64,000 bases of DNA from Porphyromonadaceae bacterium (GTDB lineage Bacteria; Bacteroidota; Bacteroidia; Bacteroidales; Dysgonomonadaceae): NCBI GenBank assembly GCA_022840285.1, contig JALHIE010000027.1, positions 13,080-77,079 of the forward strand, read 5' to 3'. The position numbers were made by a program, and so were the translations under genes. This document shows positions 39,075 to 55,210 of the stretch, piece by piece; position 1 is the stretch's first letter, and every line of letters begins with the position of its first letter. The notes under the pieces are model-generated. The model saw only the letters and a program-made list of their open reading frames with translations. It was not told the origin of the DNA and did no database searches.

Positions 39075-39075
39075 T

Positions 39076-40545: not shown

Positions 40546-43303
40546 TTCTTACGGTTAAGATATGATTCACGTCGGGCACCACGCTAAGCCCTTTGGCAAA
40601 AGCACTTTTCCACTCTTCTTTTTCTGTAGTCAGCTTTCGTAACTTGGCATTTCTAATGTTTTCAATGCCAATGCGGTTGAGCCGATTCTCTGCATAACTC
40701 CAAGCCTTCAGTTTTTTCTCTGCTCTTGCTTGCAAAACGTTTTGAATTTCGGCTTCCATCCGATGGAACAAGGCATGAAGATTATTGTTTAAGGCTTGGT
40801 TTTCCTCTATAGCCAGATTGCATTCTGTTTCACCCACATATTGAAAACTGTTTTTCTCTTGCACCAATCTATTCCACACATCATTGCCGTAGGGAGCAAA
40901 TACCCTGCCCGCATCGGTAATAAACTGAGCAGAATAAGTTGTTTTGGTTTCGTAGTTGTTTTTGGCCAACACTTTCCATAAGGTCAGATAGCCACATGTC
41001 TCACCACCATTTTTAGACACAATTACAGGAACCATCGTTTGAATATTCCCATCCATCTCATCCAGAATTCGTTTCACGACGGGATGTTGCAAAGTAAGAT
41101 GTTCCGAACCAGGATTATCACCCAGCTTGTCTGCCTCAAATACAGCTTCCAGTCTATATCCGTTGATGGCGTATTCGGAAACACCGGACAATCGCTTCAC
41201 AATTTTACCCTTTTCATTCATCGTGTAAAGATCCATCAACTCTTCCAGCCATACAGGAAGCGGACTGTATTTTATTTCACCGGCACTTTCCTTTTTTATA
41301 TCGTCTCCTGTAAAAACAGGTAAAATACCTTCCGTAGATTTATAATCGTTGAGTTTGCTTTTTATCTCATACAGCCATTTGTCACTGGCAAAATCAAATC
41401 GATGGGGATCGAGCAATGATTGCAGATAAAGATGATTTACCTGCTTCATATCGATAGTAGAGTCCAGTACATCATTGGTTTTGTCAATTCCCAATTCTTG
41501 CAGTATGGCATCCAGTTTCTCCACGATAATCTCATATACTCTGGTGTCGACCGTGTTATTGGTCAACATATTGAAAGCAACTACCGGAAATTTCTGACCA
41601 ATACGATCTACACGTCCGATGCGTTGTTCTATGGCCATTGGATTCCAAGGCAAATCATAATTGAGAACGATGTGGCAAAACTGCATATTCAACGATTCAC
41701 CCGCCGCATCCGTTGCCACCATCACATTGGCTTCGTTCTTAAACTTCATAAGCGCCTGTTGTCGTTCCGCTAAATCCATGCTGCCATGTATTTCCACCGT
41801 AGTCAATCCTGCACCTTCAAGGATTTTTTTCAGATAGCCCTGTGTCTTGCGAAACTCGGTAAACACCAGTACTTTTAACTGAGAATTGTTGTACTTGTCT
41901 TGCAGTTTATAGATTTTCCGAACCAAAGCTGTCGCTTTGGCATCTTGTTCTGTTTCCAGGCAGGTGCGTGCCTCCACAATCAATTTTTGGAGTGCTGTTT
42001 CTTCATTGAAAAAGCCATTATCCTGCATTGCAACCGAAAAGTCGTTCGTATCTAAATCATCAAAGTCGACTACACCCTCTTCATCATAGTCGTCAATGTC
42101 ATCATCCGTTTCACCATGTTGCAACCTCCACAAACGAGTTTCCATGGCAGCCAAAATAGCGGCCGTACTGCTACTTGCCAACTTTTGCATCATCACCATC
42201 ACCAGTCCTGTAGCATTCCTATTACCTCGCTTGGCACGTCCAAAACAATACCTCACATAGTTGGTTACATGATTGTATAAATCTATCTGTAAGCGATGAT
42301 ATGTTTCGTCGAGTGGAACATCCAATCGTATGGTCATTCGCTGCTGAAAAAGTTTCTTCCCGTCATAATCCACCGCATATCGTTTTTCTGAACGCATCAC
42401 GTAAGGCTCAATCTCTTCAATACTCGGCATTCCGTCTCCCGGGAAAGCGTCGGCATCAATCAATTTGAGCACTCTGCGGAAATGATCGCTCTTGCCGCGA
42501 TGGGGAGTAGCGGTGAGAAGCAACACGTTCGGCACTGCATTGCATAGTGTTTCGGCCAATTGATAGCGAGATACCTGTGCCGTACTTCCACCCATGCGAT
42601 GGGCTTCATCAATAATAACCATGTCAAATTCAGCATTCACCACGGCTTCCAGGCGATACTTGTTGTATTCATCAATTTTCTCCTGGCTCCATCCTTGTCG
42701 AGCTGACAATGGCTTCAAAGCATCAGTAGAGACTATGATTTGATGATGCTGTTTCCAGAAATTCAACTCCTCTTCTGCTTCAAATCCGGCAAAAGTACGA
42801 GCCATCCCCGAAATAAAATCACTGTTGTAGATATGGAAGTTCTCGTTGAAGTGCTCCCTCAACTCCTGTTGCCACTGAAGCATAGCCGATTTAGGCACAA
42901 TCAACAAGATTCGCGTTATCTCGCCGCGCAATTTCTTCTCCTTTATCACAAGTCCAGCTTCAATGGTCTTTCCCATGCCCACTTCATCTGCCAACAAAAA
43001 ACGGGTTTGAATACCCTGCATTACTTTCTCCAATACCAGTATTTGGTGTGGCAAAGGAATAAGGCTACTTTCATAAGGGGCCAACAATCGCTTTTGAGCC
43101 ATTTCCTCTTTGATACGTGCCGCTATAGCCATATAACGAACGTATGCCAGACCCCTGTTGGAGTTCCTGTTCAGATCATCATCCAGATCAGAACTAAGCA
43201 CTTGGGCAAAACTGTTATCCTCCAGGATACGAATCCAGTGAGTTTCCTTGCCAAATAGCGTCTTACTACCTATTATCTCTATATTTTTGCCTTTATATTT
43301 CAT
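40535..43303 (-). CDS. brxHII: BREX type 3 SNF2-family helicase BrxHII
   Basis: LLADEVGMGKT, DEAH, LTATPH, TDAAGESLNMQ, QRIGRVDRIGQ. Confidence 0.88.
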   Translation of the reverse strand: MKYKGKNIEIIGSKTLFGKETHWIRILEDNSFAQVLSSDLDDDLNRNSNRGLAYVRYMAIAARIKEEMAQKRLLAPYESSLIPLPHQILVLEKVMQGIQTRFLLADEVGMGKTIEAGLVIKEKKLRGEITRILLIVPKSAMLQWQQELREHFNENFHIYNSDFISGMARTFAGFEAEEELNFWKQHHQIIVSTDALKPLSARQGWSQEKIDEYNKYRLEAVVNAEFDMVIIDEAHRMGGSTAQVSRYQLAETLCNAVPNVLLLTATPHRGKSDHFRRVLKLIDADAFPGDGMPSIEEIEPYVMRSEKRYAVDYDGKKLFQQRMTIRLDVPLDETYHRLQIDLYNHVTNYVRYCFGRAKRGNRNATGLVMVMMQKLASSSTAAILAAMETRLWRLQHGETDDDIDDYDEEGVVDFDDLDTNDFSVAMQDNGFFNEETALQKLIVEARTCLETEQDAKATALVRKIYKLQDKYNNSQLKVLVFTEFRKTQGYLKKILEGAGLTTVEIHGSMDLAERQQALMKFKNEANVMVATDAAGESLNMQFCHIVLNYDLPWNPMAIEQRIGRVDRIGQKFPVVAFNMLTNNTVDTRVYEIIVEKLDAILQELGIDKTNDVLDSTIDMKQVNHLYLQSLLDPHRFDFASDKWLYEIKSKLNDYKSTEGILPVFTGDDIKKESAGEIKYSPLPVWLEELMDLYTMNEKGKIVKRLSGVSEYAINGYRLEAVFEADKLGDNPGSEHLTLQHPVVKRILDEMDGNIQTMVPVIVSKNGGETCGYLTLWKVLAKNNYETKTTYSAQFITDAGRVFAPYGNDVWNRLVQEKNSFQYVGETECNLAIEENQALNNNLHALFHRMEAEIQNVLQARAEKKLKAWSYAENRLNRIGIENIRNAKLRKLTTEKEEWKSAFAKGLSVVPDVNHILTVRIDG

Positions 43304-44819
43304 GGTTCTCCTCTGAAAGAATAACTTTCATTGTAATGCCCAACTCCGTAAGTTTATATTTTTGTTTGGGGTGGTGGGGGGTGTCTGCATAGAGAGGGGC
43401 TATCCAACCAAGCTCGATAGCCGGTTTAAGAATATGCACCATAAAATAGCGTGCGGAGCTCGTGCGGAGTTCGAGCGGAGTTTGTGCGGAGTTCATACGA
43501 AGTTGCAATTCTCTCGCACTATAATAGTCACTATTGATGTTGCATATCAGTGATTTAACGCGAATTTTGAAGTTGTCGTCAAGTTGTGCCAACTTCGTGC
43601 GGAGTTCATCATGAGTTCGCTCTAAAGCCGTAACATTAGCATCCATAACCACCACTTCAAAGACGGTTAATTTATTTACATTAAAATGTGCCGGCTTAGA
43701 ACCATTGGTTTGAAGGTATTCCTGCACCCGGCTTATGCCTCGATTGAACATATTTACGTACTTCATTACCTTCATTGCTTCTGCCACGATAGGATTGCGG
43801 TAGGCATTCACATGGGGGAAGTTTTCCGGACGAGCTTCGCCATACAGTCCGCCAGCATTCATAATTTCAATGCGGTTGTCAAACTGATAGAGTCGAATGG
43901 GAGTGTTTGACTGATAATCTCTGTGCATGCAGGCATTCATCAAAAGTTCACGTAAAGCTCCTCCGGGGTAGTTTGTAACCGTTTTTTCGCGTAGCAGACT
44001 TATTTCTTCCGGTCGTTGCGTAACAATAGCATCGGCTACGAATGATTCTAATCGAGGTAACAAAGTTGTTAATCCTCCTTTAAATTCTTTTTCGTTGATG
44101 ATTTTGCCGGCCTTTGTTGTTCCCTCAAAGTGAACATATTGCACATAACAACCCGGCATAAAATATTTAGGCTGTTTACCAAAAAGTATGATTGCTGCCA
44201 TTGTGGGACAATCATATTGCTTGTTGTATAAGCGTAAAGAGGCCATCTGTTCCGTAAAACTACGAGTATCTGTTTCGAGTGTTTCGGTATCGATGGCTTG
44301 AGGAAAATATTGCTGTTTGATGATATCTGTATCAATATCATCCAATGTTGCTTCTCGGCAGGGCATTACATCGAAAGTGGCTAGATGTGCAGCATTTCGT
44401 TCGGTGAGGATCCGTTCTTCTTCAGCCGAAGCGATATCCTTACGTGGGCCGATGCGTACGAAAACGCGACCTCGGTAGCGGACAGGAGTGAAGAGAGAAG
44501 GAGTAACTGCGACGGCAAGCACATCGCCTTTTTCGGTTTCTACCTTTTCTGTACTCATTACAGGTAAAGGGAGGATGTTGCCGTCTGAACGAATTCCGGA
44601 AATCTTTTTTACCAGGGCATCATCCACTTTAAGTCCGCTCACCGAACCATCATCATTGACACCTATAAGTAGGTAGCCTTTCTTCCCGGAACCGGGAAGA
44701 TCATTGGAAAAAGCACAGATTGCCTCCTGAAACTTATCCATGTTGGAAGTGGAAGCAGTACGTTCTATGCGAAAATTTTCATCCGTTTGCAACAACTCGT
44801 TCAACTCTTCCTTGGTCAT
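43293..44819 (-). CDS. Schlafen/AlbA_2 + HATPase_c_4 + winged-HTH protein inserted in BREX
   Basis: ENFRIERT...ICAFSND...YLLIGVNDDG (AlbA_2); ALRELLMNACMHRDY (HATPase_c_4); LKPAIELGWI...PKQKYKLT (wHTH). Confidence 0.85.
   Translation of the reverse strand: MTKEELNELLQTDENFRIERTASTSNMDKFQEAICAFSNDLPGSGKKGYLLIGVNDDGSVSGLKVDDALVKKISGIRSDGNILPLPVMSTEKVETEKGDVLAVAVTPSLFTPVRYRGRVFVRIGPRKDIASAEEERILTERNAAHLATFDVMPCREATLDDIDTDIIKQQYFPQAIDTETLETDTRSFTEQMASLRLYNKQYDCPTMAAIILFGKQPKYFMPGCYVQYVHFEGTTKAGKIINEKEFKGGLTTLLPRLESFVADAIVTQRPEEISLLREKTVTNYPGGALRELLMNACMHRDYQSNTPIRLYQFDNRIEIMNAGGLYGEARPENFPHVNAYRNPIVAEAMKVMKYVNMFNRGISRVQEYLQTNGSKPAHFNVNKLTVFEVVVMDANVTALERTHDELRTKLAQLDDNFKIRVKSLICNINSDYYSARELQLRMNSAQTPLELRTSSARYFMVHILKPAIELGWIAPLYADTPHHPKQKYKLTELGITMKVILSEENHEI
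43450..43493. repeat. Four tandem 11-bp units inside the AlbA gene
   Basis: CGTGCGGAGCT CGTGCGGAGTT CGAGCGGAGTT TGTGCGGAGTT; a fifth copy lies at 43596-43606. Confidence 0.85.
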
Positions 44820-44854
44820 ACACTTTCGTTTTTACAACCCAACATTCTAAGAGA

Positions 44855-47548
44855 TTACACTCTTGAAACAGCAATATCGTAATACTGGAGCAGAATCTCA
44901 TCTTCTTGAAGCAGAGACTCCTGTATATGGTCGCCCACTGTGATAATTGCCTGGTAGTCCTTTTGCTTGTAACACTCCTTGAAACCATAGCGTAGTACTT
45001 CGAGACGGGTATCTCTCATCCGCCTAGCCTTTGGCTTTTGGGCCTGTTCCAGATACATATTATATTCTTTCATCATCTTTCTTCCCCGCATAATCTCCAT
45101 ATCGGCAGCCTTTTCGGCATCTGGCTTGCGCCATTTGCCATCAGCGTCTCTGATGAAATTATCTTCCAGAATTTCGGATAGCTCAGGAAGAATATCACCT
45201 TTCTTAGTGGGAGTCATATTCTTCATCCATTCAGGTTGCAATTCTGAATAGGTCTGGGGTGTTTCCAATTCACGCTTCAACCATTCAATGCCTTCTGCTT
45301 CACTGCCTATAAACAATGCCATTGGCACAATACCTGTTGTTTTACTCTTCTTGTCTTCATATTCCAATGCTTGAGAAGCCGTAAAGAACATCCCATCGCG
45401 CTCAATAAATCGTTCTCGAAGACCCTTCTGAAATTCTTGGGCATTTAGAGGTACTTCAATGCCATGCATAACAAAGTATGAAACGACTTTGTCATATAGA
45501 ATACGCTGATCACGTTCTACAACGCATTCAATATTATTATCTTTAATTAGAACTGGGGATAAATGTTCTAAATGTTCTTCAATAAAATTCCATATATTTT
45601 TTTCTATAGAATCTTTGTTTTCAAACTGCAAAACTATAGAAGGTTTATAGCATGAAATTACGAGATCTTGTTTTACAGCAGTTGTCGTTGTTATTGAACG
45701 CATACCACCTTGTCCTTTATTCAATGCAGCTACATTTGCTAGAACAAATCCTGCTTTAGTTATTGCCTGCCGAATAGAATTCCATATACCAGCATTGGTG
45801 TTACTAAATTCTACAGTCATCCATTTGCCTGGTTTAAGAACACGATAGTATTCAGCAAAACTTTTCGACATCTTATTTAAATAAAATGAGAAATTTTTAT
45901 CCTGACAAGAATTTATGATAGCTTCTGTCTGACTATTTGTTAGAACTTTCAACCATGCTTCTGGTAATATATTGAGTTCAGAATACATAATGTTTGAACC
46001 AAATGGAGGATCTGTAAATATGTAATCTACAGAAGCATCATTAATAGGAAATTTTTCTGCTGATCCTATATACAATGCATTATCGAATTCTCGTGGAAAG
46101 TATGGAATAGCTCTTAGATATCCACTCAATTTGTCTTCAATTTGTTCAAGTATTGATGTCTCTATGGGCAAGTTCGGTATGTATAAGGTGCCTTTTAAAT
46201 GACCTGCATTCCATCCGCCACCTCCATAAAAATAGTTACTGACATGGATTCGATTCATCTTAGTAGAACGATTCACCATTCCTGTAAAAATAAACTTTAG
46301 TTTGTTTGACAGTGCTGATTTCTGTATCTTATCAAAGAAAGTAGATAGCGCGATTAGGTTCCTCAAAGTATAAAATTGATGAACATAACATATGTTTTGA
46401 GCATTTTTGGGTTGTTGTGTATTATAACCATTAGGCAATTCATACGTAGGGACAAAGTAGTTGTTCTTATAATTCATTATTCTTTCGAGTAAAGCTTTGT
46501 CATATTCATCCGCTTTTTTTTCAAATCTTTTATTACCAACAGAATATACTAGAATTGCCGGAGTAGTTTTGTTAATTGACACCGTTTTACCTAAATAATT
46601 ATCATAGATAGTATTAAAGGCTCTTTTTGTTGAATATTTAGTATGTATAATATTGCAATGAGGGCAATAAAATTCATCCTTAATGCACTTATTATCCCTA
46701 TCTATTGCTGCATCCCAATAAACGAATTCCTTGCCACAGTTGGTACATATTAAAATATCACTCCATACCATGTAGTTAATTAACCCAATTTCTTTTCTTT
46801 CATGCATTGTAGTGTACAACCATTTACACTCTTCCTTTGTTTCACTGAATATTCTTTCAACTTCTTTCTTTAGTTCTAACGAATTGACTGGTGTATTATA
46901 ATTGTATGAAACCAAAGAAGCATATGGAGACAAATCTCCACAAATTGCATGACGTTTCCCCCAATTTGGATGTTTTCCTGATTGTTCACCCCATTCTCTT
47001 TCAATTGACTCTATGTCTTCTTTTGAAGGATTACCACAAGCTTGTGCGGCAATTCCAGTCATCCCTGTTCCTGCAAACCCATCGAATACAATGTCGCCCG
47101 GTTGGGTATAATGCAAAATATATCGCATGATAGCGGGATGAGGTACTTTTGTATGGTAGGTATGTGCAGTATACACTGGGTTATTTTTACCTACCTTTAC
47201 ATCATTTGCATATGGCTCTTTCACTTCAAAACGGGCCTGTCGTTTCCCTTCTGCCTGAAGTTGTTCTTTTTCTTTTTCCCATTCCCCAATAAAATCATTT
47301 AACCAGGGGTTGGGACAAGCTGTATAGTATGGGGGATCAGAGAGATTGACAATATCGTCATCTTCTCCAATAGGAAAGCCTTCTATCTTTTTTAGTTCCG
47401 GCAGTTTCTTGCGAAGCTCTTCCCGAAAATAATCCCGACGAGCCTCTTCACATGGAAATTCCATTCCAAAGCAAACTACGGGTTCGGGGTTTAAACTGGT
47501 CTCCTCAAATTCATCATCAAGAAACAGCCTGGGGTCTTTATTGCTCAT
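44855..47548 (-). CDS. pglXI: BREX type 3 DNA methyltransferase PglXI
   Basis: HTYHTKVPH, motif I FDGFAGTG, CxxC...CxxC, motif IV TDPPF. Confidence 0.88.
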   Translation of the reverse strand: MSNKDPRLFLDDEFEETSLNPEPVVCFGMEFPCEEARRDYFREELRKKLPELKKIEGFPIGEDDDIVNLSDPPYYTACPNPWLNDFIGEWEKEKEQLQAEGKRQARFEVKEPYANDVKVGKNNPVYTAHTYHTKVPHPAIMRYILHYTQPGDIVFDGFAGTGMTGIAAQACGNPSKEDIESIEREWGEQSGKHPNWGKRHAICGDLSPYASLVSYNYNTPVNSLELKKEVERIFSETKEECKWLYTTMHERKEIGLINYMVWSDILICTNCGKEFVYWDAAIDRDNKCIKDEFYCPHCNIIHTKYSTKRAFNTIYDNYLGKTVSINKTTPAILVYSVGNKRFEKKADEYDKALLERIMNYKNNYFVPTYELPNGYNTQQPKNAQNICYVHQFYTLRNLIALSTFFDKIQKSALSNKLKFIFTGMVNRSTKMNRIHVSNYFYGGGGWNAGHLKGTLYIPNLPIETSILEQIEDKLSGYLRAIPYFPREFDNALYIGSAEKFPINDASVDYIFTDPPFGSNIMYSELNILPEAWLKVLTNSQTEAIINSCQDKNFSFYLNKMSKSFAEYYRVLKPGKWMTVEFSNTNAGIWNSIRQAITKAGFVLANVAALNKGQGGMRSITTTTAVKQDLVISCYKPSIVLQFENKDSIEKNIWNFIEEHLEHLSPVLIKDNNIECVVERDQRILYDKVVSYFVMHGIEVPLNAQEFQKGLRERFIERDGMFFTASQALEYEDKKSKTTGIVPMALFIGSEAEGIEWLKRELETPQTYSELQPEWMKNMTPTKKGDILPELSEILEDNFIRDADGKWRKPDAEKAADMEIMRGRKMMKEYNMYLEQAQKPKARRMRDTRLEVLRYGFKECYKQKDYQAIITVGDHIQESLLQEDEILLQYYDIAVSRV

Positions 47549-47565
47549 ATTTGGTTTTATTCTCT

Positions 47566-50500
47566 TTATTTGATTATGATACGTACATCTTCCGGACGGT
47601 GTCCACGGCTTTGGGCCTCTATGTATTCAGCCAAAGCCTCAATAGCTTGTTGCTTAGTCATAGGCTTAGAAAAGATTCGAAGCATATCCCCATGATTGAT
47701 CTCGATTTTCGTGAAACTACGCTGTAATTTAGTAATAATTTCTATCAACGGATGTGCATACTGCCGATTGAGTTTGATCACTCCATCGGCAAACTGCTGA
47801 ATCATGGTCTTTTCCTGATGGCTCAGCATCTCCTGATTGCGCTTAGTTGTAGGATCATCCAGAGCATCACGGAATTGCTGCTCATATTCAGCGAAAATTT
47901 CGCTCAACTCGTCCTGTAATTCTCCAATTTGTGGTAGCTGCTCTCGCTGAAGTGTGGGATTGAAGCCATCGGGAGCTGTGGGCATGGATAGGATTGTCTG
48001 CTTACTGACAGTTGGATTCACAACTTGCAGCAGTGCTAATTTTCTTAACCATGCATCATACCGGGAAGGGTTAATGAAAGGTGCATCGCGAATAGTATCG
48101 CACACCTGTTTATAGTCATTGGCCCTAAGTTTCTGTGCCTTGCTATAGTCAATCTCACTGATATGTGCTTTTACATATTCGCTCATATACCAATCGGCAT
48201 ATCGCTCTTTTAGGGTCTTAAGTTCTGATTTATAGTTATCAACCACAGTTTTGTCCTGGCCTATTACCTCTTTAATATTGCTAATACCTGCGATAATATC
48301 CTCTTTGAGATTGGGCTCATTGATGTTGGACAGCGCAGTGCGTAGATAGCCAATCATATCCTTGAAGACATTCAACTCTTCCAGCATACGTTCTGTGTCA
48401 TCCAGCTTCCGCAAAGTTTCGTTCATCGCTTTTTTAACCACATCGATAGACCAATCAATATTGCGCATCTTGGCTTTGGTGTTGTATCGCTGAAGTTGGT
48501 TGCAAATGCCTTTTAAACGAACAAGTTCCTTGTCAAATTCCGAAGCTTCTTCGCTTGAGATCACTTCAATGTCACCGGCAAAACGATAGTCTCCTTGAAT
48601 CTTATGCTGTAAAGTGACCACGCGGTTCTCGATGCTTTGTGCCTTGCTCGACAAATCGGCAAACACACTGCTGTTTGGACTATCCAATTCATTCACACGG
48701 TCTATACCCAGCAGGCCCAACATCAACTCACGAACCAAGGCAACATTCAATCCTTTGGGGGGACATATATTCGAGAATGTGTAATTATCTTGCGGATTCA
48801 GTTTGTTGATATCGGCAATGTTGCTCGCATTGATACGTGTACCTCCTTGTAGCACAATCTCTATTTCACCCAAGGCTGCCATGGTTGCCATCACCAACAT
48901 TTGCAAATCGGCCTCAATATGAAAATCGGAGGAGATGTACTCGTGTGTTTCATCGAAGAACAAATCCAATATCTCATCCCGATTCACTACTTGACCATCT
49001 TTTGCCTCCAGTTTCTGCTTCAGACTACGGGCATATTGCGAGTGATCGGTGCTAAGGCGACCGTCATTCCACAAACCAAGTCCCATCAGGATGGCTTCTC
49101 CATTTCGGTTTATGATGGTAGGGTTGGCTATTTTAGCACGAGCTGAACGCAAAAGATTATCACGATTTTCCCGTGTCAAAGGTTGACCCAATTGTGAGAA
49201 CTTCGGGTAATGAGGGTTCTCTGCCTCAAACTGCAGCTCCATAATATAAGAAGTGACCGCACTGATGGCATCAATTTTTGATTCTGCTTGTGCTCCCTGC
49301 ATTGTTTCCATAGCAAGCTTTTCACCCAAATACTCCACCATGGTTTTGGCAAGAAACTGTTGGTTGAAAAGTTCACGTGCTTCCTTAAAGAATTTTTCGC
49401 GGAGTTGTTTGTAGCGAGGCTTTTCATCGCTACTTGCACTGCCTTCTTGAGAGAGAGCAGAACCATAGAGCGTAACTTTCTTTTTGAACTCATCGCTCAA
49501 ATCGTCCATCAGGAAGAAAACGCTATCTTTCTCTGTAGGATAAGATTTCCCAGCTGAATCAAAGATAGGCATAAAGTAGATGTAGAAATGCTGCTGTGGC
49601 TGAGTGGTTGAACGATCATTCGGATTACCCATAAAGATATATCCGGCACGATGGCATTTGTGGGATAACCATTCTATATTGTGTGCCCAGATCCGGAAAT
49701 TGCGACGGTATGTCTCGCCTTCCACCGGCAGTACTTCGGCCAGAAACATATAGAAGTATTCATCTTTCTGAGCGTCTCCCATCTGTGCGGCATAATCCTT
49801 CACCTTCTGTTCGTAATTGACGCCTCCTTCTATTCTGAGGTGGTATTCATTGTTTTCTCCTTTTTCAAAATATTGTCCGATGGTGGCCGAAACAATTGCA
49901 TCCAAAGTACGGTTAAATGCCAAATCTACCAACTCATCGTAGTTTTCACACGTATGATCGATATGGCAAAGGTCGTTGGCCAACGATTCGGCAGTAACTC
50001 CATTGTGCTGACTAAGGTCTGCTTGAAGCATCTTGATGGCTGCAGCAGATACAATACGGTGAGCCAACGTTCTTTTAGGAGCAAGGCCCTTCGTAAAGTT
50101 ATCTCTTATCTTTTGATCAATCAGTTCAGTAATATCGCTCACCTTACTTACATCGGGGTCGGCCTTCAGATCTACATTGTGCTGTATATCTTTCCAATAG
50201 GAGTCATAAGAGATTAGACCAGGCTCGTTTGTAGGCACCTCATCGTTCATGATACCTTCAAACTTATGGGATAGTGTCTTTAACACTTCACGTTGACTTT
50301 TGCCGATGCGTATCAAGGAAAAATTATCAAAGTAGCTTGGATGCACGGGATATAAGTTCACATAAGTATCCAGGTTGTTATTCATATTTGGAAACATAAC
50401 CAGAAATTGAGACAGATGTTGGCGAATCTGTGCTTTCTGATGTTCATCCTTTCGTAACAACCGTTGTTGTACGATGTATTGTACATCTTCTTTCTTTATA

Positions 50501-51234
50501 GTGAGGTCAACATATCGTTCGTTCACTCTTCCCAGCATATCTTTGGCAAATTGAAATTCGGGAGAGCGGTAAATAAGTTCCTGTACACCAAATACCATAC
50601 GAAAATGGGTACGATCGCTCATTTGACCCAACGCCTGCAAAACAGCCAGATCACGATTCAGTTTAGCGGGTTCACTGCGACCTTTTAAATAGGATAACAT
50701 TTCATCGATGACAAGCATAAAGCCTTTTTCAGGGTATTTTTCTTCAAAGGCTGCCATCATGCACTCTATCTTTTCAGAGTAAGATTTAGGAGAATCATCA
50801 CCCGAAATGGAATATTCAACACCCCATTGCGCCAAAGCCGAATCAATCTTATAAGTGATAATATCCCACAATTCCTGATTGTGCCCCAATTCAAAACGAT
50901 AAACCATGTATTTTCCAGCAATCGTTTTGAGCCAGTCTTTTGCTTTCTCACTCTGTACCATGGGTAGGTAATCCGCATTCTCAGCAATGATGGAGAATAG
51001 TGACATCAAGTGAGATTTACCGGTACCATAATTACCCACAATCTGGATACCTTTTGTTTCTGTTGTGGCATTCAAATCGAGTGTTGCACAGATTTTCGGA
51101 ATAATGTAGTTTTCGAAGGTATTGGAAAACACAAAGTTTTTTACCACTTTTGCACGATAATCATCATCATCGAGTTTCCCAAACTTGATGATTTCATCAA
51201 TCGGGTCAAATTGAATCAAATCTCTGTATCTCAT
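47566..51234 (-). CDS. brxC: BREX BrxC/PglY-type ATPase (DUF6079 family)
   Basis: Walker A GNYGTGKS, Walker B LVIDE, YPVHP; long coiled-coil C-terminus. Confidence 0.88.
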   Translation of the reverse strand: MRYRDLIQFDPIDEIIKFGKLDDDDYRAKVVKNFVFSNTFENYIIPKICATLDLNATTETKGIQIVGNYGTGKSHLMSLFSIIAENADYLPMVQSEKAKDWLKTIAGKYMVYRFELGHNQELWDIITYKIDSALAQWGVEYSISGDDSPKSYSEKIECMMAAFEEKYPEKGFMLVIDEMLSYLKGRSEPAKLNRDLAVLQALGQMSDRTHFRMVFGVQELIYRSPEFQFAKDMLGRVNERYVDLTIKKEDVQYIVQQRLLRKDEHQKAQIRQHLSQFLVMFPNMNNNLDTYVNLYPVHPSYFDNFSLIRIGKSQREVLKTLSHKFEGIMNDEVPTNEPGLISYDSYWKDIQHNVDLKADPDVSKVSDITELIDQKIRDNFTKGLAPKRTLAHRIVSAAAIKMLQADLSQHNGVTAESLANDLCHIDHTCENYDELVDLAFNRTLDAIVSATIGQYFEKGENNEYHLRIEGGVNYEQKVKDYAAQMGDAQKDEYFYMFLAEVLPVEGETYRRNFRIWAHNIEWLSHKCHRAGYIFMGNPNDRSTTQPQQHFYIYFMPIFDSAGKSYPTEKDSVFFLMDDLSDEFKKKVTLYGSALSQEGSASSDEKPRYKQLREKFFKEARELFNQQFLAKTMVEYLGEKLAMETMQGAQAESKIDAISAVTSYIMELQFEAENPHYPKFSQLGQPLTRENRDNLLRSARAKIANPTIINRNGEAILMGLGLWNDGRLSTDHSQYARSLKQKLEAKDGQVVNRDEILDLFFDETHEYISSDFHIEADLQMLVMATMAALGEIEIVLQGGTRINASNIADINKLNPQDNYTFSNICPPKGLNVALVRELMLGLLGIDRVNELDSPNSSVFADLSSKAQSIENRVVTLQHKIQGDYRFAGDIEVISSEEASEFDKELVRLKGICNQLQRYNTKAKMRNIDWSIDVVKKAMNETLRKLDDTERMLEELNVFKDMIGYLRTALSNINEPNLKEDIIAGISNIKEVIGQDKTVVDNYKSELKTLKERYADWYMSEYVKAHISEIDYSKAQKLRANDYKQVCDTIRDAPFINPSRYDAWLRKLALLQVVNPTVSKQTILSMPTAPDGFNPTLQREQLPQIGELQDELSEIFAEYEQQFRDALDDPTTKRNQEMLSHQEKTMIQQFADGVIKLNRQYAHPLIEIITKLQRSFTKIEINHGDMLRIFSKPMTKQQAIEALAEYIEAQSRGHRPEDVRIIIK

Positions 51235-51235
51235 T

Positions 51236-51655
51236 CTATAAGGTCTTATATGTTATATCTTTCAAGTTTAATGAATACTTGGTTTCGTTGTTTGTGGTAA
51301 GAAAGAAGACATGGTTATGAATAGTACCTTCGTGATGAATGATTAACACTCTGGTCCTCGACCACGAATCGACTTTCGCATGAAGATTGATATGCAATGC
51401 AGGTTCAAAGAGGATACCAATATTTCGGATAGCAACATAATCGCCAACATCAGGATCTTGTATTGTATATTGATCAATAATCTTGTCAAGAGCTTCTTCG
51501 GCCACCATTGAGAGCCGTTTTTCATGAAGTATATGCTCTATTGCTGCAGATAATTCAGTTCCCACATCCACAAACGATATATCTTCTATCTCACGCTTGA
51601 TAAAAAGCAGTTTGTGCCGGGAATTTGCAGCTATATGTTGTTTCCATGTTTCCAT
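51236..51655 (-). CDS. brxF: BREX type 3 BrxF-like protein with no recognisable Walker A
   Basis: First gene of the operon; NIGILFEPAL resembles the BrxF NxExLF motif; TATCTTTG promoter on the minus strand at 51731-51738. Confidence 0.7.
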   Translation of the reverse strand: METWKQHIAANSRHKLLFIKREIEDISFVDVGTELSAAIEHILHEKRLSMVAEEALDKIIDQYTIQDPDVGDYVAIRNIGILFEPALHINLHAKVDSWSRTRVLIIHHEGTIHNHVFFLTTNNETKYSLNLKDITYKTL

Positions 51656-51894
51656 TTATTGGATTTCTTCTTTGAAAGGATAATGTAATTTTTCCTTATT
51701 TTCTAAAGTAGTGTACGAAATATAACATAGCAAAGATAACGAAGATATTTCAAACCTCTTAAAAGATTTTTTGAAATCGTAATATCGTTACATGAACTGA
51801 ACTGAAAAATAAATCGTTAAGCACGTAATAACCGGAAACGCTGGGTATAATTCAACACCGACTCATCGCTGGGTCGTGCCGACCGCTCAGAGTC

Positions 51895-53160
51895 CTATTT
51901 ATTAGGTGTAGATTTTTTTTCATCATCACCGTTTGTTTTAGTCTTTTTCATAGATTTCTTAGGACTGTCAGTTTTATTCAAAGAAGAATCAAAAAAGTCA
52001 GATATATTTTTTGATGCTAACTTTTGAGCACTTAGCATGTCTGAAATACTTTTTGAAGTCATTGCCTGAGAACTCAATATATCAGAAATACTAATCGGTT
52101 TATATGATTGGGCACTAAGCATATCTGAAATACTCTTTGAAGTAATTGCTTGAGAACTTAACGTGTCAGAAATATTAATTGGTTTACAGGTCTGAGCACT
52201 TAGCATGTCTAAAATACTCTTTGAAGCAAGTGAGTGTGTGTTCAAAATATCACTTAAATTAGTATAATATTTTTCATCTGAAACACGAATATCTTTTACT
52301 TCTTCAATCGTCTCATCTTTAATTTCTGGTAGCAAACCTCTTTCCTTTGCATAAGTTAAAAACTGGTCAGCATTATAAATTAGAATTCTTATTCCTGTAA
52401 AATCAAAAAATTCCTTTATTAATTCTTCTCTTGGTCTTAAAGTTTTCCCTTTTTCAATTGTCCACCAATCTTCCTTTCTATCATCAGTTATAAAAATGAG
52501 AGGATTTTTTTTGTTTTTCGTATAATTAATTAATTCTTTCCAGACAATCAAATCACCATAAATGTTTCTGAGCCCTTTTTTTTGCTTTGTGTTTTCATCT
52601 TTATATCCAGGAGGGATTTCATTAGCATACCTTTCTTTTCCCTCTGAATAAATCTTAGTTAATTCATCTTTTGAGAATTCTTCACCCACACTATCATCAA
52701 AAAGTTCAGTAATTTCATTTAATACAGTATCTTCAGTTTTGAAATCTGGATGATTCGCTTTTTGTTTTTCAAGCTCATTGGATACATTCTCCAAGAAATT
52801 ATCATGTGTTTTTATTATTTCATCTATTAGGATTGACGGATGCTTTTTATAGTGATTTAATTGCTTTTGTAAGTTTTTATCAAAATTTTCTATAAGAAGA
52901 GAATTAATATCATCATATGATTTTTCGATTCCTTCAATTACCCCAAGTCTGTTTTCATGATATTCAAATGCGGCTTGATATGGAAGAAATAGCTTATCTT
53001 TTATCGTTTTCAATGCTCGAATAAAATCATTTCTTGTATTTACCGTATATCGATATAAGTTTAAAAGTGTATTTGCATCAAAAGCAAATACTCCTTTGCT
53101 CCAAGCTTCGTCAGTTTCTTTTTTATCTGGCGAATAATATCCAATAAATTTCTTTTTCAT
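51895..53160 (-). CDS. PIN-like domain protein (PIN_8/DUF4935-type) with a C-terminal 14-aa repeat tail
   Basis: FAFDANTLLNLY, AAFEY, YGDLIVW, FITDDRKEDWW acidic PIN motifs. Confidence 0.82.
   Translation of the reverse strand: MKKKFIGYYSPDKKETDEAWSKGVFAFDANTLLNLYRYTVNTRNDFIRALKTIKDKLFLPYQAAFEYHENRLGVIEGIEKSYDDINSLLIENFDKNLQKQLNHYKKHPSILIDEIIKTHDNFLENVSNELEKQKANHPDFKTEDTVLNEITELFDDSVGEEFSKDELTKIYSEGKERYANEIPPGYKDENTKQKKGLRNIYGDLIVWKELINYTKNKKNPLIFITDDRKEDWWTIEKGKTLRPREELIKEFFDFTGIRILIYNADQFLTYAKERGLLPEIKDETIEEVKDIRVSDEKYYTNLSDILNTHSLASKSILDMLSAQTCKPINISDTLSSQAITSKSISDMLSAQSYKPISISDILSSQAMTSKSISDMLSAQKLASKNISDFFDSSLNKTDSPKKSMKKTKTNGDDEKKSTPNK
51990..52262 (-). repeat. In-frame 84-bp (2 x 42-bp) tandem repeat in the PIN gene
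   Basis: TG(A/G)GCACT(T/A)AGCAT(G/A)TCT starts at 52025, 52109 and 52193; protein SKSISDMLSAQ / PISISDILSSQ alternate. Confidence 0.92.
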
Positions 53161-53311
53161 ATGTTTTCTGTTTAATTTCTGACTAACTTAAAATTAAATG
53201 TCAGTAATTCAATGGTTTATATTATGGGTTTTATTCAGTTTTCATTCACTTTTTTGACCATTCTATTACGTTAGCTTAAGTAGTCAATGTCTCTGGAATA
53301 GGGTGAATTAC

Positions 53312-53406
53312 GCCTAAAGTTTTCGGGATTTGCGTTAGGGCGGGTTTCGGAGCACAAAGCATCAAGTTTACACGTCACCCCGCCTGACACAAAATCCGTG
53401 TTATGC
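53312..53406 (-). other. attC-like integron cassette recombination site
   Basis: Minus strand GCATAAC-ACGGATTTTGTGTCAGGCGGG ... CCCGCCCTAACGCAAATCCCG-AAAAC-TTTAGGC forms an imperfect hairpin ~40 bp after the upstream stop codon. Confidence 0.65.
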
Positions 53407-53445
53407 GGTCGTGCTTCTCTGTCCGTTATACAAATTTCTATATTT

Positions 53446-54192
53446 TTATTTGTCAATTTCATTATAAAGCTGTGAAATGATGTCAGTGTAATTATTCTTT
53501 TCGCAAATCTTTATTAGTTCTTCAAAATTGTCAGGAGTCAAATGTTTAAGAAGTAATTCCTTTTTCGTTTTGTCTGAAAGCTTGGAATAATGAATACCCC
53601 AAATCAAGCTAGTTTTGTCTTTGTAGGTGAAGTTGGTATCAAAGTTTAATCTCAGTCCAATTAGTTCGGATAAACGATTGTCTAGGTCTTTTTTCTTCAG
53701 TCTTTGGTTGCACCAAGTTGTTATTGCCTTGTTGGGTTTAGGATAACGAAGAAGTCTATTTTGTATGTGTTCTGAAATTTCATAATTGTCTATGAGCCAG
53801 TCAATGTTTTCTTGTGAAAGTTCAATGTCTTTAATTGTCACGCTTAAACTCCAAACAATCGTCTCATTGACTTCATTTATTAATGACTTGAAAACGAAAA
53901 ACAATTTGTCAGAAGTTTTGCTGTCAATAAAAGAGTTATCATATTGCCAGCGAATTAACTTGATGAAGGTAATTTTCTGAAAACGTTGATTGCTTTTTAT
54001 TTTTTCAATAACAGTGTCAAGAAGATGATTTAAAATACGTTTGTCAGGTTTTGCATACCTAATAAGGTCTTTATACTCAAGAATCGTTTTGTAGTCCTGA
54101 AATATTTCGTCTGGAATCTGTGTTGGAAAATGTCTTAGAAAAGAATTTTCAAGCAGTATAAATTGTTCAGGTGTCAATTTCATTTTGTTCAT
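53446..54192 (-). CDS. Hypothetical AT-rich helical protein carried as a gene cassette
   Basis: ATG 54192 (MNKMKLTPEQ) lies ~40 bp after a GTTAGTGGTAA core site at 54220-54230; followed by the attC-like hairpin. Confidence 0.75.
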   Translation of the reverse strand: MNKMKLTPEQFILLENSFLRHFPTQIPDEIFQDYKTILEYKDLIRYAKPDKRILNHLLDTVIEKIKSNQRFQKITFIKLIRWQYDNSFIDSKTSDKLFFVFKSLINEVNETIVWSLSVTIKDIELSQENIDWLIDNYEISEHIQNRLLRYPKPNKAITTWCNQRLKKKDLDNRLSELIGLRLNFDTNFTYKDKTSLIWGIHYSKLSDKTKKELLLKHLTPDNFEELIKICEKNNYTDIISQLYNEIDK

Positions 54193-54386
54193 TCTTTTGG
54201 CGAAATACTGTCGCAAAGCTTACCACTAACATGTTTTTCACCCAATCAATCTCCTCCTTGCCTAAATGTTAAATTTAAAACATTCGTATATCTACACGCA
54301 ACAGGGGTGTTTACGAAAGTTTGTTGAATCCGGATAAATAATTGATGGAAACTTGTGTGTTGCATAAGTATCAGTATTTTGAATCG

Positions 54387-54394
54387 CAAATATA
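54387..54394 (-). promoter_or_regulatory. -7 element pointing into the cassettes (Pc-like)
   Basis: TATATTTG on the minus strand, ~155 bp upstream of the GTTAG site. Confidence 0.45.
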
Positions 54395-54529
54395 ACGATT
54401 ATTTGGATAAAAAAACGATATTGTTAAAAAGTTATGAGTTTTCTTCCATGAGTATATTTTATTGATGTGTTCTCCTATATGTTGGATATTGGCAAAGCGG
54501 AAGCAGATCCAAAAGAATAAATATGCTAA

Positions 54530-55210
54530 TTAAATATTATAGTGAGAAATTATTATCCGGGCATCAATATCCAGTTTAGAGAAAGCGAACAGTTTTTTCC
54601 CTAAGTCTTTCAGTGATGCTCCCAGGTGGTATACGTCGGTTTCGTCAATAATAAGGAACCGGTCATGTGCTTGTTTATATTCCCGGATGATTATCTCCGG
54701 GTATTGATTATTATGTTTCTGCAAATCTAAAAGAAGTCCCTCGGATACCTTTCCGGTATAGGTAATGGCCGTAACCCCAGAATTTCTTTTGGTCAGCATC
54801 AAAAGAACGCTTTCATCGACATAGTTATCAATGAGGATCAGTGATTTTTTAGCTGACTTGATTAGGTTGATAGCAAATACATAGGCATCGAATATTTGCC
54901 CGTTGAAAAAAATATCTTCCACTGGAGGGAGAGATGTACGAACAAAGAAATCTATCTTTTCGCCCTGTTCGGCAACGGTTCTCACCAACTTATCTATGCG
55001 TTGACTGACGACGTAACCTTTAAGCATATACTCTTTCAATACTTTGTTGGCAAATTGCCGGAATTGTGTGCCTCTGATGGATTTTACCCGATAACCAACT
55101 GATATGATAACATCCAAACTGTAAAATTTAACAGGCTTGTCAGAATTTGCAATGTGCAAAAAATGCACATTGCTTTTTTTGTCAAGTTCATTTTCCTTAA
55201 ACGTTTCCAA
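54530..55210 (-). pseudogene. RhuM-like DNA-binding protein with PLD-like C-terminal domain, 5' truncated
   Basis: YSLDVIISVGYRVKSIRGTQFR; LIDNYVD...HDRFLIID...GASLKDLGKK; TTG start in the middle of the domain. Confidence 0.7.

What the first reader, a model, noticed from the sequence alone, without database searches (positions are those of the whole stretch)
51825..54400. Integron-like cassette array without an integrase, feeding into BREX
Seen (minus strand): -7 promoter box (54394), GTTAGTGGTAA core site (54230), short leader, orphan ORF, a 95-bp imperfect hairpin GCATAAC...TTTAGGC, then the PIN gene followed by a degenerate site sharing GCACGACC just after the stop. Established: cassettes are promoterless ORFs bounded by GTTRRRY and attC hairpins; attC clusters lacking intI (CALINs) exist; cassettes often encode phage defence. 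The hairpin resembles attC-like repeats I recall from other Bacteroidetes, shortened centrally, with the crossover G changed to T. Inference: two fixed cassettes captured into a Bacteroidales defence island; the 54192 ORF is a prime unknown defence candidate.
Basis: partly seen in the sequence, partly recalled or inferred. Interest (0 to 1): 0.68.

Follow-up and report, generated by a model that had tools for sequence, protein, structure and literature searches.

The report
Two fossil integron cassettes beside BREX
Just upstream of a BREX phage-defence operon in a digester Bacteroidales genome sit two genuine integron-type gene cassettes (an unknown helical protein and a PIN-like nuclease) with no integrase nearby, which shows that a little-described cassette-capture system widespread in Bacteroidota also supplies genes to defence islands.

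Summary
The 95-nt element at 53406-53312 (minus strand) belongs to a highly conserved, roughly 140-nt attC family (nhmmer E=6e-26). I found that family in same-strand arrays in at least 44 Bacteroidota genomes and plasmids.

Orthologues of both genes are clean cassettes elsewhere, with the same 5' boundaries:
- Daejeonella: GTTAGTGGT.
- Metagenome contig L273: GTTAGGCGTAA.

In 56% of neighbouring attC pairs the start of a cassette is complementary to the inverse core (R'') of its own attC. For non-cognate pairs the figure is 3.8%.

It is the R'' box of the PIN cassette, followed by a roughly 70-nt relic of the end of an IS91-family element that inserts into attC sites.

The 230 nt upstream of the first cassette looks like an attI site. 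In digester metagenomes it is multi-copy and is followed, exactly at G|TT (54230|54229), by at least four other cassettes.

No tyrosine recombinase is encoded in the 64 kb. A defence function for the cassettes and read-through transcription into BREX remain untested.

The parts
54387..54394 (-). TATATTTG, a Bacteroidetes-type -7 promoter box (TAnnTTTG) upstream of the cassettes
   Evidence: Read directly from the sequence. The consensus comes from established knowledge of Bacteroides promoters. Function was not tested. An IS110-family insertion in other contigs joins exactly at 54390 and rebuilds the box.
54231..54456 (-). attI-like platform or leader. Module B is 54346-54456, module A is 54231-54293, and the motif TACGAATGTT is at 54288-54279.
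   Evidence: It is multi-copy in digester metagenomes: depth up to 150x against 5.6x for the neighbouring gene and 165x against 7x. It is followed by different sequences exactly at 54228/54227. The 10-mer is shared with the two direct repeats between an IntI-like recombinase gene and the first cassette in L092, and with L219. It has no significant fold, so it is not an attC-type hairpin.
54224..54230 (-). GTTAGTG, the R'-type core site. The crossover lies between G54230 and T54229 and marks the 5' boundary of cassette 1.
   Evidence: The Daejeonella orthologue has an upstream attC ending ...cggtc|GTTAGTGGTCATG, 36 nt before the same start codon. Loose ends of metagenome contigs begin at 54228/54227.
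53318..54229 (-). Cassette 1: a 37-nt leader, the orphan ORF and attC1
   Evidence: Boundaries follow.
53446..54192 (-). Orphan ORF of 248 aa, an all-alpha helical-repeat protein of unknown function
   Evidence: No family hit. 64 homologues, where named all from Bacteroidota, 38-99% identical. AlphaFold2 mean pLDDT 93.8 with 16 helices. No fold match in PDB or BFVD at E<0.1.
53312..53410 (-). attC1, a member of the Bacteroidota 'F1' attC family. R'' GCATAAC is at 53406-53400; R' TTTAGGC is at 53318-53312, with the crossover G replaced by T at 53318.
   Evidence: nhmmer E=6e-26. Alignment and consensus hairpin. 75-87% identity to partial matches in intergenic elements of Flavobacteriia and Cytophagia plasmids.
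51902..53317 (-). Cassette 2: starts TTAGGCGTAA, carries the PIN gene and ends with the R'' box of its former attC
   Evidence: Its start is complementary to its own R'' at 8 of 10 positions. Against the R'' complements of the 38 other cassette pairs the best match is 7 of 10. Orthologous cassette L273 has G|TTAGGCGTAAATT...TCTACGCCTAAC.
51895..53160 (-). PIN_8 / PIN_12 (DUF4935-type) PIN-like protein of 421 aa, with five 14-aa C-terminal tandem repeats
   Evidence: Pfam PF18476 E=1.3e-64. Repeats of 42 nt at 52024-52275. 504 homologues at E<=1e-10. The last four codons and the stop are read from the R'' box and the IS relic.
51902..51912 (-). TCTACACCTAA, the R'' (inverse core) relic of the PIN cassette's attC
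   Evidence: Homologous to TCTACGCCTAA(C) of L273. Complementary to the cassette start.
51832..51901 (-). Relic of the transposase-distal end of an IS91-family element (element family 'F2'), inserted after ...TAA of R''
   Evidence: nhmmer E=5.7e-19. In 40 of 59 other copies an IS91-type transposase gene (Y2_Tnp + Zn_Tnp_IS91) with a tyrosine recombinase gene lies at a fixed distance on the opposite strand. Logan contigs break at 51880 inside it.
38508..51655 (-). Type 3 BREX operon downstream (BrxF, BrxC, PglXI, a Schlafen/AlbA_2 insert, BrxHI/II, PglZ and a 188-aa ORF). This is context, not part of the array.
   Evidence: PADLOC and Pfam hits. Same order in 10 further contigs.

Best explanation
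**What it is.** The stretch 54456-51832 (minus strand) is a short, decayed integron-type cassette array. It lies in a defence island of a Bacteroidales bacterium from anaerobic digesters.

**Layout.** A promoter-bearing, attI-like platform ends at a GTT core (54230). Two cassettes follow.
- Cassette 1 carries an unknown all-alpha protein and a complete attC of a Bacteroidota-wide family.
- Cassette 2 carries a PIN_8 nuclease-like protein. Its attC was cut right after its inverse core by an IS91-family element, of which only about 70 nt remain.

**How it arose.**
- Shown by comparison: each gene once existed as a free cassette.
- Inferred: a tyrosine recombinase inserted each one by attC x attI/attC recombination at G|TT.
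- That recombinase was probably of the IntI/Xer-like kind found beside such arrays in other Bacteroidota. None is encoded in this 64-kb window.

**Current state.** In this lineage the pair is frozen:
- the crossover G of attC1 is mutated to T;
- attC2 is destroyed;
- the same pair sits in front of BREX in every related contig.

Inferred and not shown: both genes are expressed from the upstream TAnnTTTG promoter, and they add a nuclease-based layer of phage or mobile-element defence next to BREX.
For: 1. **attC1 belongs to a real family.** Profile hit E=6e-26. The alignment shows canonical ...YAAC / GTTR... boxes and a conserved 25-pair imperfect hairpin.
2. **The family behaves as integron attC sites.**
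   - Same-strand arrays occur with 0.6-2.5 kb spacing; L059 and L107 have 6 copies and L130 has 5.
   - The first 8-10 nt after G| of one site are complementary to the R'' of the next site in 22 of 39 cognate pairs, against 3.8% of non-cognate pairs.
   - Some copies are disrupted by group II introns; L123's locus has Rfam intron matches and its attC, like L112's, breaks off at the GTT core.
   - In plasmids the sites separate resistance genes: arr, lnu(H), a GNAT acetyltransferase gene, blaOXA, MYO-1 and aadS.
3. **Both genes are cassettes elsewhere, with the same 5' ends.** See Daejeonella L266 and L273.
4. **Cassette 2's start matches its own R''** at 8 of 10 positions.
5. **Population data support a variable slot.**
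   - Contigs at least 95% identical to the platform continue with other sequences from 54228/54227: TTGGCTACCCTAATAGG... and TTATGGGCAACTG....
   - Contigs laid at an 85% identity threshold add TTGACTAATATTT... and TTGGCTACTATTTGAG....
   - The two-cassette block 51879-54260 forms one contig at depth 7, while its flanks reach 17-165.
6. **The platform shares TACGAATGTT** with the repeat pair next to an IntI-like recombinase gene in L092.
7. **No tyrosine recombinase** is found in any six-frame ORF of 80 aa or more in the window.
8. **The arrangement is fixed** in 10 further contigs.
Against: - No integrase is present, so activity cannot be argued from this locus.
- Single-sequence folding of attC1 is no better than shuffled sequence.
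- The start of cassette 1 (TTAGTGGT) pairs with its own R'' (ACCGCATAA) only if one base is bulged and one G-T pair is allowed.
- The attI reading of the platform rests on a 10-mer, on depth and on loose ends. It does not rest on a demonstrated binding site.
- The contig 'depths' come from Logan assemblies of mixed communities, so paralogous platforms in other species contribute to them.
- Homologues of the orphan ORF in Chryseobacterium, Myroides and Terrimonas have no recognisable attC nearby.
- Nothing shows that either protein defends against phage. PADLOC has no model for them.
- Metatranscriptome support is thin. A few low-depth PIN fragments appear in X33, and the runs X25-27 labelled 'RNA' look like DNA.
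Confidence: 0.85

Rival explanations
1. The array is not a fossil. An integrase encoded elsewhere in the genome still exchanges cassettes at the platform (54230), so this is a live, trans-served hot spot upstream of BREX.
For: At least four to five alternative continuations occur exactly at G|TT in six runs from four samples (X1, X2, X3 and X25-27). The two-cassette block has 3-20 times lower depth than its flanks. Classical integrases act in trans on integrase-less attC clusters (established knowledge).
Against: attC1 lacks the crossover G and attC2 is truncated, so these two cassettes could at best leave as one block. All 11 assembled versions carry the same pair. The high-depth platform copies may belong to other species.
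Confidence: 0.35
2. The two genes are ordinary accessory members of this BREX operon. The flanking repeats are incidental intergenic repeats (REP/MITE or terminator-like) with no role in gene capture.
For: The gene pair is always found with this BREX in the contigs retrieved. The hairpin's folding energy is unremarkable. No integrase is present.
Against: Orthologues occur without BREX, as single genes bounded by attC sites. The start/R'' complementarity rule holds across 39 pairs. The same elements separate resistance genes in plasmids. Identity to CP073276.1 falls from 100% in the pieces compared upstream of the PIN stop to 89-91% from the IS relic onward, so the cassette block and BREX have different histories.
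Confidence: 0.05
3. The site after the PIN stop is a degenerate attC. If so, the locus is a true two-attC CALIN.
For: It sits where an attC should be, begins with a good R'' box, and contains small hairpins with compensatory changes relative to a Persicobacter copy.
Against: Everything 3' of ...CCTAA belongs to a family of more than 120 copies. In 40 of 59 testable cases that family is the end of an IS91-type element. F2-to-next-cassette junctions do not obey the complementarity rule. In L232 and Myroides L003 the remainder of the interrupted attC resumes after the other IS end (...TTAGTTCAA|C).
Confidence: 0.05
4. The cassettes are not defence genes. One or both could be an addiction, stabilising or selfish module (for example a PIN toxin), or an anti-defence or regulatory protein carried by the cassette pool.
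For: PIN domains are common toxins of toxin-antitoxin pairs, and integron arrays are known to carry such pairs (PMC13108822). The orphan protein has no catalytic signature. There is no PADLOC hit.
Against: The PIN_8 protein has 421 aa and no small partner gene. The contexts of homologues are defence-rich: Lamassu, CBASS/SMODS, HipA, Kiwa and HEPN. The locus sits between RhuM/KilA-N candidate defence genes and BREX.
Confidence: 0.3

Closest known systems
CALIN / SALIN elements (clusters of, or single, attC sites lacking an integron integrase; IntegronFinder terminology, PMC9024848)
   Same: Same-strand cassettes bounded by attC sites with RYYYAAC / GTTRRRY-type boxes. No integrase within reach. 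Signs of decay.
   Different: Only one attC is intact; the second is reduced to R'' by an IS insertion. An attI-like platform with a promoter is retained. [quoted passage not shown]
Defence cassettes of sedentary chromosomal integrons (Vibrio 'biobank' of anti-phage systems, bioRxiv 10.1101/2024.07.02.601686)
   Same: Small single-gene cassettes of unknown function or nuclease type, in an array, in a defence context.
   Different: There, defence was shown experimentally and the arrays have a canonical IntI and hundreds of cassettes. Here there are two frozen cassettes, function is untested, and they adjoin BREX rather than a large array.
Canonical integron integrases (IntI1, VchIntIA; PDB 2A3V)
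   Same: Recombinases next to F1 arrays (L092, L082) are the best non-Xer match to IntI: E=1.4e-40 to 2A3V and TIGR02249 at 198-232 bits. They lie divergently from the cassettes, as intI does.
   Different: They lack the roughly 41-residue IntI-specific insertion (2A3V residues 203-243 are unaligned). They score below the TIGR02249 cut-off. None is in the window.
attC-targeting mobile elements: the IS1111-attC group and group IIC-attC introns (own knowledge of the literature)
   Same: Elements that insert specifically into attC sites and thereby immobilise cassettes. Group II introns are also seen in this attC family.
   Different: The element here belongs to the IS91 family (Y2 HUH transposase plus an accessory tyrosine recombinase). 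It resembles the tandem 'ISWz1/ISMno24' IS91-family gene annotations in Elizabethkingia (PMC10973501). It inserts between AA and C of R''. I found no description of attC targeting for this family.
Homology-independent acquisition of lnu(H), blaRATA and aph(3')-IVb in Riemerella anatipestifer (PMC13148043)
   Same: Resistance genes move together with a short 5' leader and a roughly 140-bp 3' region that folds like an attC. An Empedobacter lnu(H) is followed by an F1 attC scoring 138 bits, and a Riemerella plasmid carries two F1 copies.
   Different: That work leaves the mechanism open and concerns resistance genes in Flavobacteriales. The window shows the same element family in a Bacteroidales defence island.

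Membership tests
attC recombination site | Inverse core R'' (RYYYAAC) at the 5' end and core R' (GTTRRRY) at the 3' end | tested here: inconclusive
   R'' GCATAAC matches 6 of 7 positions. R' reads TTTAGGC, so the invariant crossover G is replaced by T. In the family alignment this G is at least 90% conserved across the 39 rows.
attC recombination site | Imperfect hairpin (L''/L' stems with bulges) conserved in structure | tested here: met
   RNAalifold gives a 25-pair consensus hairpin, kept in the window copy. There is little covariation because the sequence is so conserved. Single-sequence folding energy is not significant.
attC recombination site | The cassette's first bases are complementary to the R'' of its own attC (the signature of a circular intermediate) | tested here: met
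   For the family: 56% of cognate pairs reach at least 8 of 10, against 3.8% of non-cognate pairs. Window cassette 2 reaches 8 of 10. Window cassette 1 fits only with a bulge and a G-T pair.
attC recombination site | Recombined by an integron integrase | not testable with these tools
   This needs a recombination assay.
Complete integron | intI gene (tyrosine recombinase with the IntI-specific extra domain) adjacent to the array | tested here: not met
   No tyrosine recombinase in six-frame ORFs of 80 aa or more across the 64-kb window. Recombinases next to related arrays lack the extra domain.
Complete integron | attI site and Pc promoter upstream of the first cassette | tested here: inconclusive
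   A TAnnTTTG box lies at 54394-54387. The platform is multi-copy, carries the TACGAATGTT motif, and is followed by alternative cassettes at G|TT. No binding or transcription data exist.
CALIN (IntegronFinder definition) | At least two attC sites less than 4 kb apart and no integrase | tested here: inconclusive
   There is one complete attC and one R''-only relic, 1.4 kb apart. IntegronFinder itself could not be run.
IS91 family insertion sequence (end relic) | Terminal sequence found at a fixed distance from a Y2 HUH transposase gene | tested here: met
   Window 51904-51832 matches the F2 profile (E=5.7e-19). 40 of 59 copies have the transposase gene 240-400 nt away on the opposite strand. 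Pfam finds Y2_Tnp and Zn_Tnp_IS91. The transposase itself is absent from the window.
BREX type 3 | BrxF, BrxC, PglXI, BrxHII, PglZ and BrxA in one operon | tested here: met
   PADLOC finds BrxF, PglX/PglXI, BrxHI/II and PglZ. The 188-aa last ORF, putatively BrxA, has no hit.
PIN-like nuclease (PIN_8 / DUF4935 clade) | PIN-like domain profile match; acidic catalytic residues | tested here: inconclusive
   The profile match is full length (residues 24-247, E=1.3e-64). Catalytic residues and activity were not examined.

The most novel reading that the evidence does not exclude
Bacteroidota may possess their own phylum-wide integron-like system. Its proposed parts are:
- a nearly invariant attC of about 140 nt;
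- an attI with TACGAATGTT repeats;
- an IntI/Xer-like recombinase that lacks the hallmark IntI insertion, and is therefore missed as a 'complete integron' by standard tools.

On this reading the platform at 54231-54456 is a live, population-variable slot. It loads different single-gene defence cassettes in front of BREX. The same machinery would explain the unexplained homology-independent uptake of resistance genes in Riemerella and its relatives.
Probability: 0.3. Interest if true: 0.85.

Novelty: new member of a known kind. Interest (0 to 1): 0.6.

Why it matters
- **Integron biology.** It has been worked out almost entirely in Proteobacteria, and surveys report next to nothing in Bacteroidetes. 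This locus, and the roughly 44 genomes it led to, show canonical cassette logic operating across Bacteroidota. It carries both resistance genes (in Flavobacteriia plasmids) and candidate defence genes (here).
- **A mechanism to test.** The acquisition of resistance genes in Riemerella was recently described as unexplained. This gives a concrete candidate mechanism.
- **Testable defence candidates.** The two short single-gene cassettes are an all-alpha protein with no structural relative and a PIN_8 nuclease-like protein. Both have been exchanged between classes of the phylum.
- **A possibly new targeting behaviour.** The IS91-family element appears to home into attC sites, which, as far as I could find, has not been described for that family.

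Tried and rejected
- **Rfam.** Nothing relevant, neither at the gathering cut-off on the whole window nor at E<=10 on 51-55 kb. F2 loci also gave nothing except group II introns.
- **Folding energy.** It was uninformative as a test of the hairpin, the platform and site 2.
- **Exact-sequence look-ups.** The orphan ORF (248- and 256-aa starts) and the RhuM gene (212-aa start) are not on record.
- **Searches for the platform.** BLAST against plasmids found no match. Two pattern scans of viral contigs found none.
- **F2 as a second attC family.** I first treated site 2 this way, because its left flank obeys the R'' rule (L248, L164). I rejected it when the downstream sequence proved to be an IS91-type element and F2-to-next junctions failed the rule.
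- **Myroides p63039 recombinase as the integrase.** I first took this tyrosine recombinase for an integron integrase. It is the companion gene of an IS91 transposase.
- **Cassette 1 starting at TTATGC (54366).** I considered this start, and an attC spanning 54431-54230. Neither has fold support, and the Daejeonella orthologue places the boundary at 54230.
- **Sequence and fold searches for the orphan protein.** PDB sequence search, and PDB and BFVD Foldseek searches, gave only generic helical-repeat noise.
- **RNA evidence.** The runs labelled RNA are mostly metagenomic. They cannot show co-transcription.


Full report
**Setting.** On the minus strand the window carries a type 3 BREX operon at 51655-38508: BrxF, BrxC, PglXI, an inserted Schlafen/AlbA_2 gene, BrxHI/II, PglZ and a last small ORF. 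Reading upstream from it, the order is:
- a PIN_8 gene (53160-51895);
- an ORF with no family (54192-53446);
- N-terminally short RhuM-like (PADLOC PDC-S05) and KilA-N-like (PDC-S22) genes;
- a helix-turn-helix (HTH) gene.

The island (about 32-56.6 kb) lies between sialidase/esterase genes and a GntR-DHDPS-SusC cluster. The two genes and the spacers are AT-rich (28-34% GC), against about 42% elsewhere. The organism is a close relative of GCA_038561985.1 (97% identity over 11 kb). It lives in sludge, biogas and anaerobic-digester communities.

**The observation.** The hairpin taken alone is not statistically remarkable; its folding z-scores are about -0.5. Rfam has nothing for it.

**What the hairpin is.**
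- A distant BLASTN of 53230-53460 against plasmids hit intergenic DNA in Empedobacter, Emticicia, Myroides and Riemerella plasmids.
- In those records the hits lie between same-strand genes: arr, lnu(H), a GNAT acetyltransferase gene, blaOXA, MYO-1 and aadS, or small unknown genes next to Kiwa and RloB.
- Reading these spacers shows textbook attC anatomy...GCTAAC at the 5' end, GTTAGC... at the 3' end, and a long imperfect inverted repeat between them.
- A 17-nt core pattern then recovered the element from at least 44 Bacteroidota genomes. These include Bacteroidales, Prevotellamassilia, Flavobacteriales, Chitinophagales, Cytophagales, Sphingobacteriales and Saprospiraceae, plus one Ignavibacteriaceae.
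- The family, called F1 here, is about 140 nt long and very conserved. The window copy aligns end to end. It lacks about 37 central columns, as two Emticicia copies do, and has T in place of the otherwise at least 90%-conserved G of GTT.
- A profile HMM scores it at E=6e-26 and finds no second copy in the 64 kb.
- The alignment folds into a 25-pair consensus hairpin.

**Do F1 elements behave as integron attC sites?**
- They occur in same-strand arrays with gene-sized spacing, up to six in 8 kb.
- The defining cassette signature holds. The 10 nt that follow the G of one site are complementary to the 10 nt that end in AA at the next site's inverse core. This holds at 8 of 10 or better in 22 of 39 cognate pairs, against 3.8% of non-cognate pairings.
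- The R' boxes of L112 and L123 continue as ...CGT|GTGTGAC, a typical group II intron 5' end. Rfam finds group II intron domains in L115, L123 and L243.
- I take this as sufficient to call F1 a family of attC sites.

**The two window genes as cassettes.**
- *The orphan ORF.* It has 64 homologues, where named all from Bacteroidota, with up to 89% identity across classes. In Daejeonella the 89%-identical copy sits between two attC sites. The upstream site ends ...cggtc|GTTAGTGGTCATG, 36 nt before the same ATGAACAAA start.
- *The PIN protein.* It has 504 homologues. The 71%-identical one in L273 is a cassette that starts G|TTAGGCGTAAATT and ends with an attC whose inverse core, TCTACGCCTAAC, is its perfect complement. 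The window reads T|TTAGGCGTAATT at 53318|53317 and TCTACACCTAA at 51912-51902.
- *Conclusion.* Cassette 1 is 54229-53318 and cassette 2 begins at 53317.
- Homologues of the orphan ORF in Chryseobacterium, Myroides and Terrimonas have no attC nearby. They sit in defence-rich neighbourhoods with Lamassu, SMODS/CBASS and HipA genes.

**The second site.** The sequence after ...CCTAA is not a decayed attC.
- Its core (GAGCGGTCNGCANGACCCAGCGA) recovered more than 120 metagenome contigs, many of them breaking at it.
- The family, called F2 here, has a variable left flank that ends ...YAA, then an invariant TAAATAGG.... The window copy scores E=5.7e-19.
- In 40 of 59 copies with enough downstream sequence, an IS91-family transposase gene (Y2_Tnp + Zn_Tnp_IS91) lies on the opposite strand at a fixed distance. 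It is preceded by a tyrosine recombinase gene.
- In L248 and L164 the left flank of F2 is the complement of the start of the preceding cassette. So the IS has inserted between AA and C of an attC inverse core.
- L232 (a short derivative) and Myroides L003 show the other IS end...TTAGTTCAA. It is followed by C and the rest of the interrupted attC.
- In the window only about 70 nt of this end survive (51901-51832). The rest of the IS and of attC2 is gone.
- The PIN reading frame now runs through R'' and stops at the TAG inside the IS relic.
- The GCACGACC octamer shared with attC1 is coincidental.
- Several Logan contigs start at 51880 inside this repeat.
- Identity to CP073276.1 drops from 100% in the two pieces compared upstream of the PIN stop (54530-54217 and 53305-53161) to 89-91% from the IS relic onward. 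The cassette block and BREX therefore have partly separate histories.

**The 5' side.**
- Laying contigs of digester metagenomes on the locus gives sharp depth peaks over attC1, over the IS relic and over 54231-54456.
- The last region is not a hairpin.
- Contigs at least 95% identical to it leave the window sequence exactly at 54228/54227, that is, after GTT or GTTA. They continue with other sequences that look like cassette starts: TTGGCTACCCTAATAGG and TTATGGGCAACTG. Contigs laid at an 85% identity threshold add TTGACTAATATTT, TTGGCTACTATTTGAG and GTTAGTGGT|TAGGTTAAG.
- In one sample the block 51879-54260 assembles as a single contig at depth 7, while the flanks have depth 17-165.
- The region contains TACGAATGTT (54288-54279). 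This 10-mer occurs only eight times in 1.8 Mb of collected loci. Two of those are a direct-repeat pair between an IntI-like recombinase gene and the first cassette of a Bacteroidales array (L092...AAGAC|GTTGTGCC). Another is in L219, with the same layout. The loose ends of two metagenome contigs carry the same extended motif.
- I therefore read 54231-54456 as an attI-like platform with its promoter (TATATTTG at 54394-54387). This is inference, not demonstration.
- In six other contigs the sequence upstream of 54390 is replaced by what looks like an IS110-family transposase start.

**Integrase.**
- No tyrosine recombinase is detectable in any six-frame ORF of 80 aa or more in the window.
- Among 56 F1 loci, five carry an 'L092-type' recombinase next to the array and no IS91 transposase.
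- This type matches NCBIfam's integron-integrase model at 198-232 bits, below the cut-off of 265. It also matches the 'XerA / integron integrase' model.
- It aligns to VchIntIA (2A3V) over residues 7-202 and 244-318, skipping the IntI-specific insertion.
- It is the obvious candidate enzyme, but I could not test this, nor whether this genome encodes one elsewhere.

**Function.**
- The PIN_8/PIN_12 protein is a PIN-like, presumably nucleolytic, protein. It has an unusual tail of five 14-residue repeats.
- The orphan protein is predicted with high confidence (pLDDT 93.8) as a 16-helix repeat. It has no relative in PDB or BFVD and no conserved polar constellation suggesting catalysis.
- A defence role is plausible from context but unproven.
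- No terminator-like site lies between the platform and brxF, so read-through is possible. However, a promoter-like TTTG...TATATTTC motif also precedes brxF, and the RNA data are too thin to decide.

**Comparison with what is known.**
- Integrase-less attC clusters, cassette-borne defence genes and attC-homing elements are all established.
- What is unusual is the host phylum. [quoted passage not shown]
- A 2026 paper on Riemerella still calls the integration of lnu(H), blaRATA and aph(3')-IVb with their attC-like 3' regions mechanistically unexplained.
- I file the window feature as a new member of a known kind: a decayed integron cassette array (between SALIN and CALIN) in a defence island.
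- The wider Bacteroidota system it points to may be a variant of its own.

Noticed in passing
window 51832-51901; loci L146-L265, L232, L003: An IS91-family element (Y2 transposase plus an upstream tyrosine recombinase gene) is very abundant in environmental Bacteroidota. It appears to insert precisely between AA and C of attC inverse cores. Its ends are TAAATAGGACTCTGAGCGGTCTGCAAGACCCAGCGA... and ...GGAGGGATTTAGTTCAA. Short MITE-like derivatives exist (L232, L160, L236). I found no published description of attC targeting by IS91-type elements.
   Followed up: partly
L092 6287-7180 (+) with 6100-6290; also L082, L118, L164, L057: Tyrosine recombinases next to F1 arrays resemble integron integrases but lack the roughly 41-aa IntI-specific insertion. 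L092 has two ATATACGAATGTT(A/G)TA direct repeats between the gene and the first cassette (a DUF262-like protein of 554 aa). A third, inverted copy lies just upstream of the recombinase gene's start.
   Followed up: partly
L001 1942-3143, L003 2900-5060, L004 856-1846: Resistance genes in Flavobacteriia plasmids (arr, lnu(H), a GNAT acetyltransferase gene, blaOXA, blaMYO-1, aadS) are each followed by attC sites, some of the same F1 family. This would explain the 'homology-independent' integration reported for Riemerella resistance genes (PMC13148043).
   Followed up: partly
L112 about 3780, L123 90-224 and 5270-7230, L115 6224-6395, L243 1365-2240: Group II introns are inserted in F1 attC sites, and in L243 in the IS91 end. 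Some F1 R' boxes read CGT|GTGTGAC.
   Followed up: no
window 54390; L017-L019, L022-L024 first 40-210 nt: In six related contigs the sequence upstream of 54390 is replaced. A divergent ORF there starts MRTVSGLDVHKDSIFMCILDEQGK, a weak DEDD_Tnp_IS110 match (E=0.004). The junction lies inside the -7 box, which the insertion rebuilds as TAAGTTTG.
   Followed up: partly
window 54429/56057 and 54535/55081: Single metagenome contigs join 54429 to 56057 (removing KilA-N and RhuM) and 54535 to 55081 (removing most of RhuM). Both genes also start 50-85 residues into their PADLOC profiles, and RhuM is not annotated in CP073276.1. These upstream genes may therefore be decaying or variably present.
   Followed up: no
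window 52024-52275: The PIN_8 gene ends in five tandem 42-nt (14-aa) repeats (SKSISDMLSAQ...-like), 61-82% identical to one another. Homologues differ in length at this end (354-517 aa).
   Followed up: no
window 43293-44819 and 45400-46900: A Schlafen/AlbA_2-HATPase_c_4-Fic_C protein gene is inserted between pglX and brxH of the BREX operon. A 1.5-kb stretch inside pglX drops to 30-35% GC and is where related contigs lose similarity (72-74% identity). That pattern would fit a swapped specificity region.
   Followed up: no
L280-L293 (IMG/VR contigs): Fourteen contigs classified as viral carry an exact 22-base core (24-nt pattern with two free positions) of the F1 attC family, so such cassettes may also ride on phages or phage-like elements.
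   Followed up: no
window 34562-38287: A 1241-aa SIR2_2-domain protein lies on the far side of BREX, together with a DUF4143 ATPase and an HTH-DUF6922 protein. These are further candidate defence genes of the same island.
   Followed up: no
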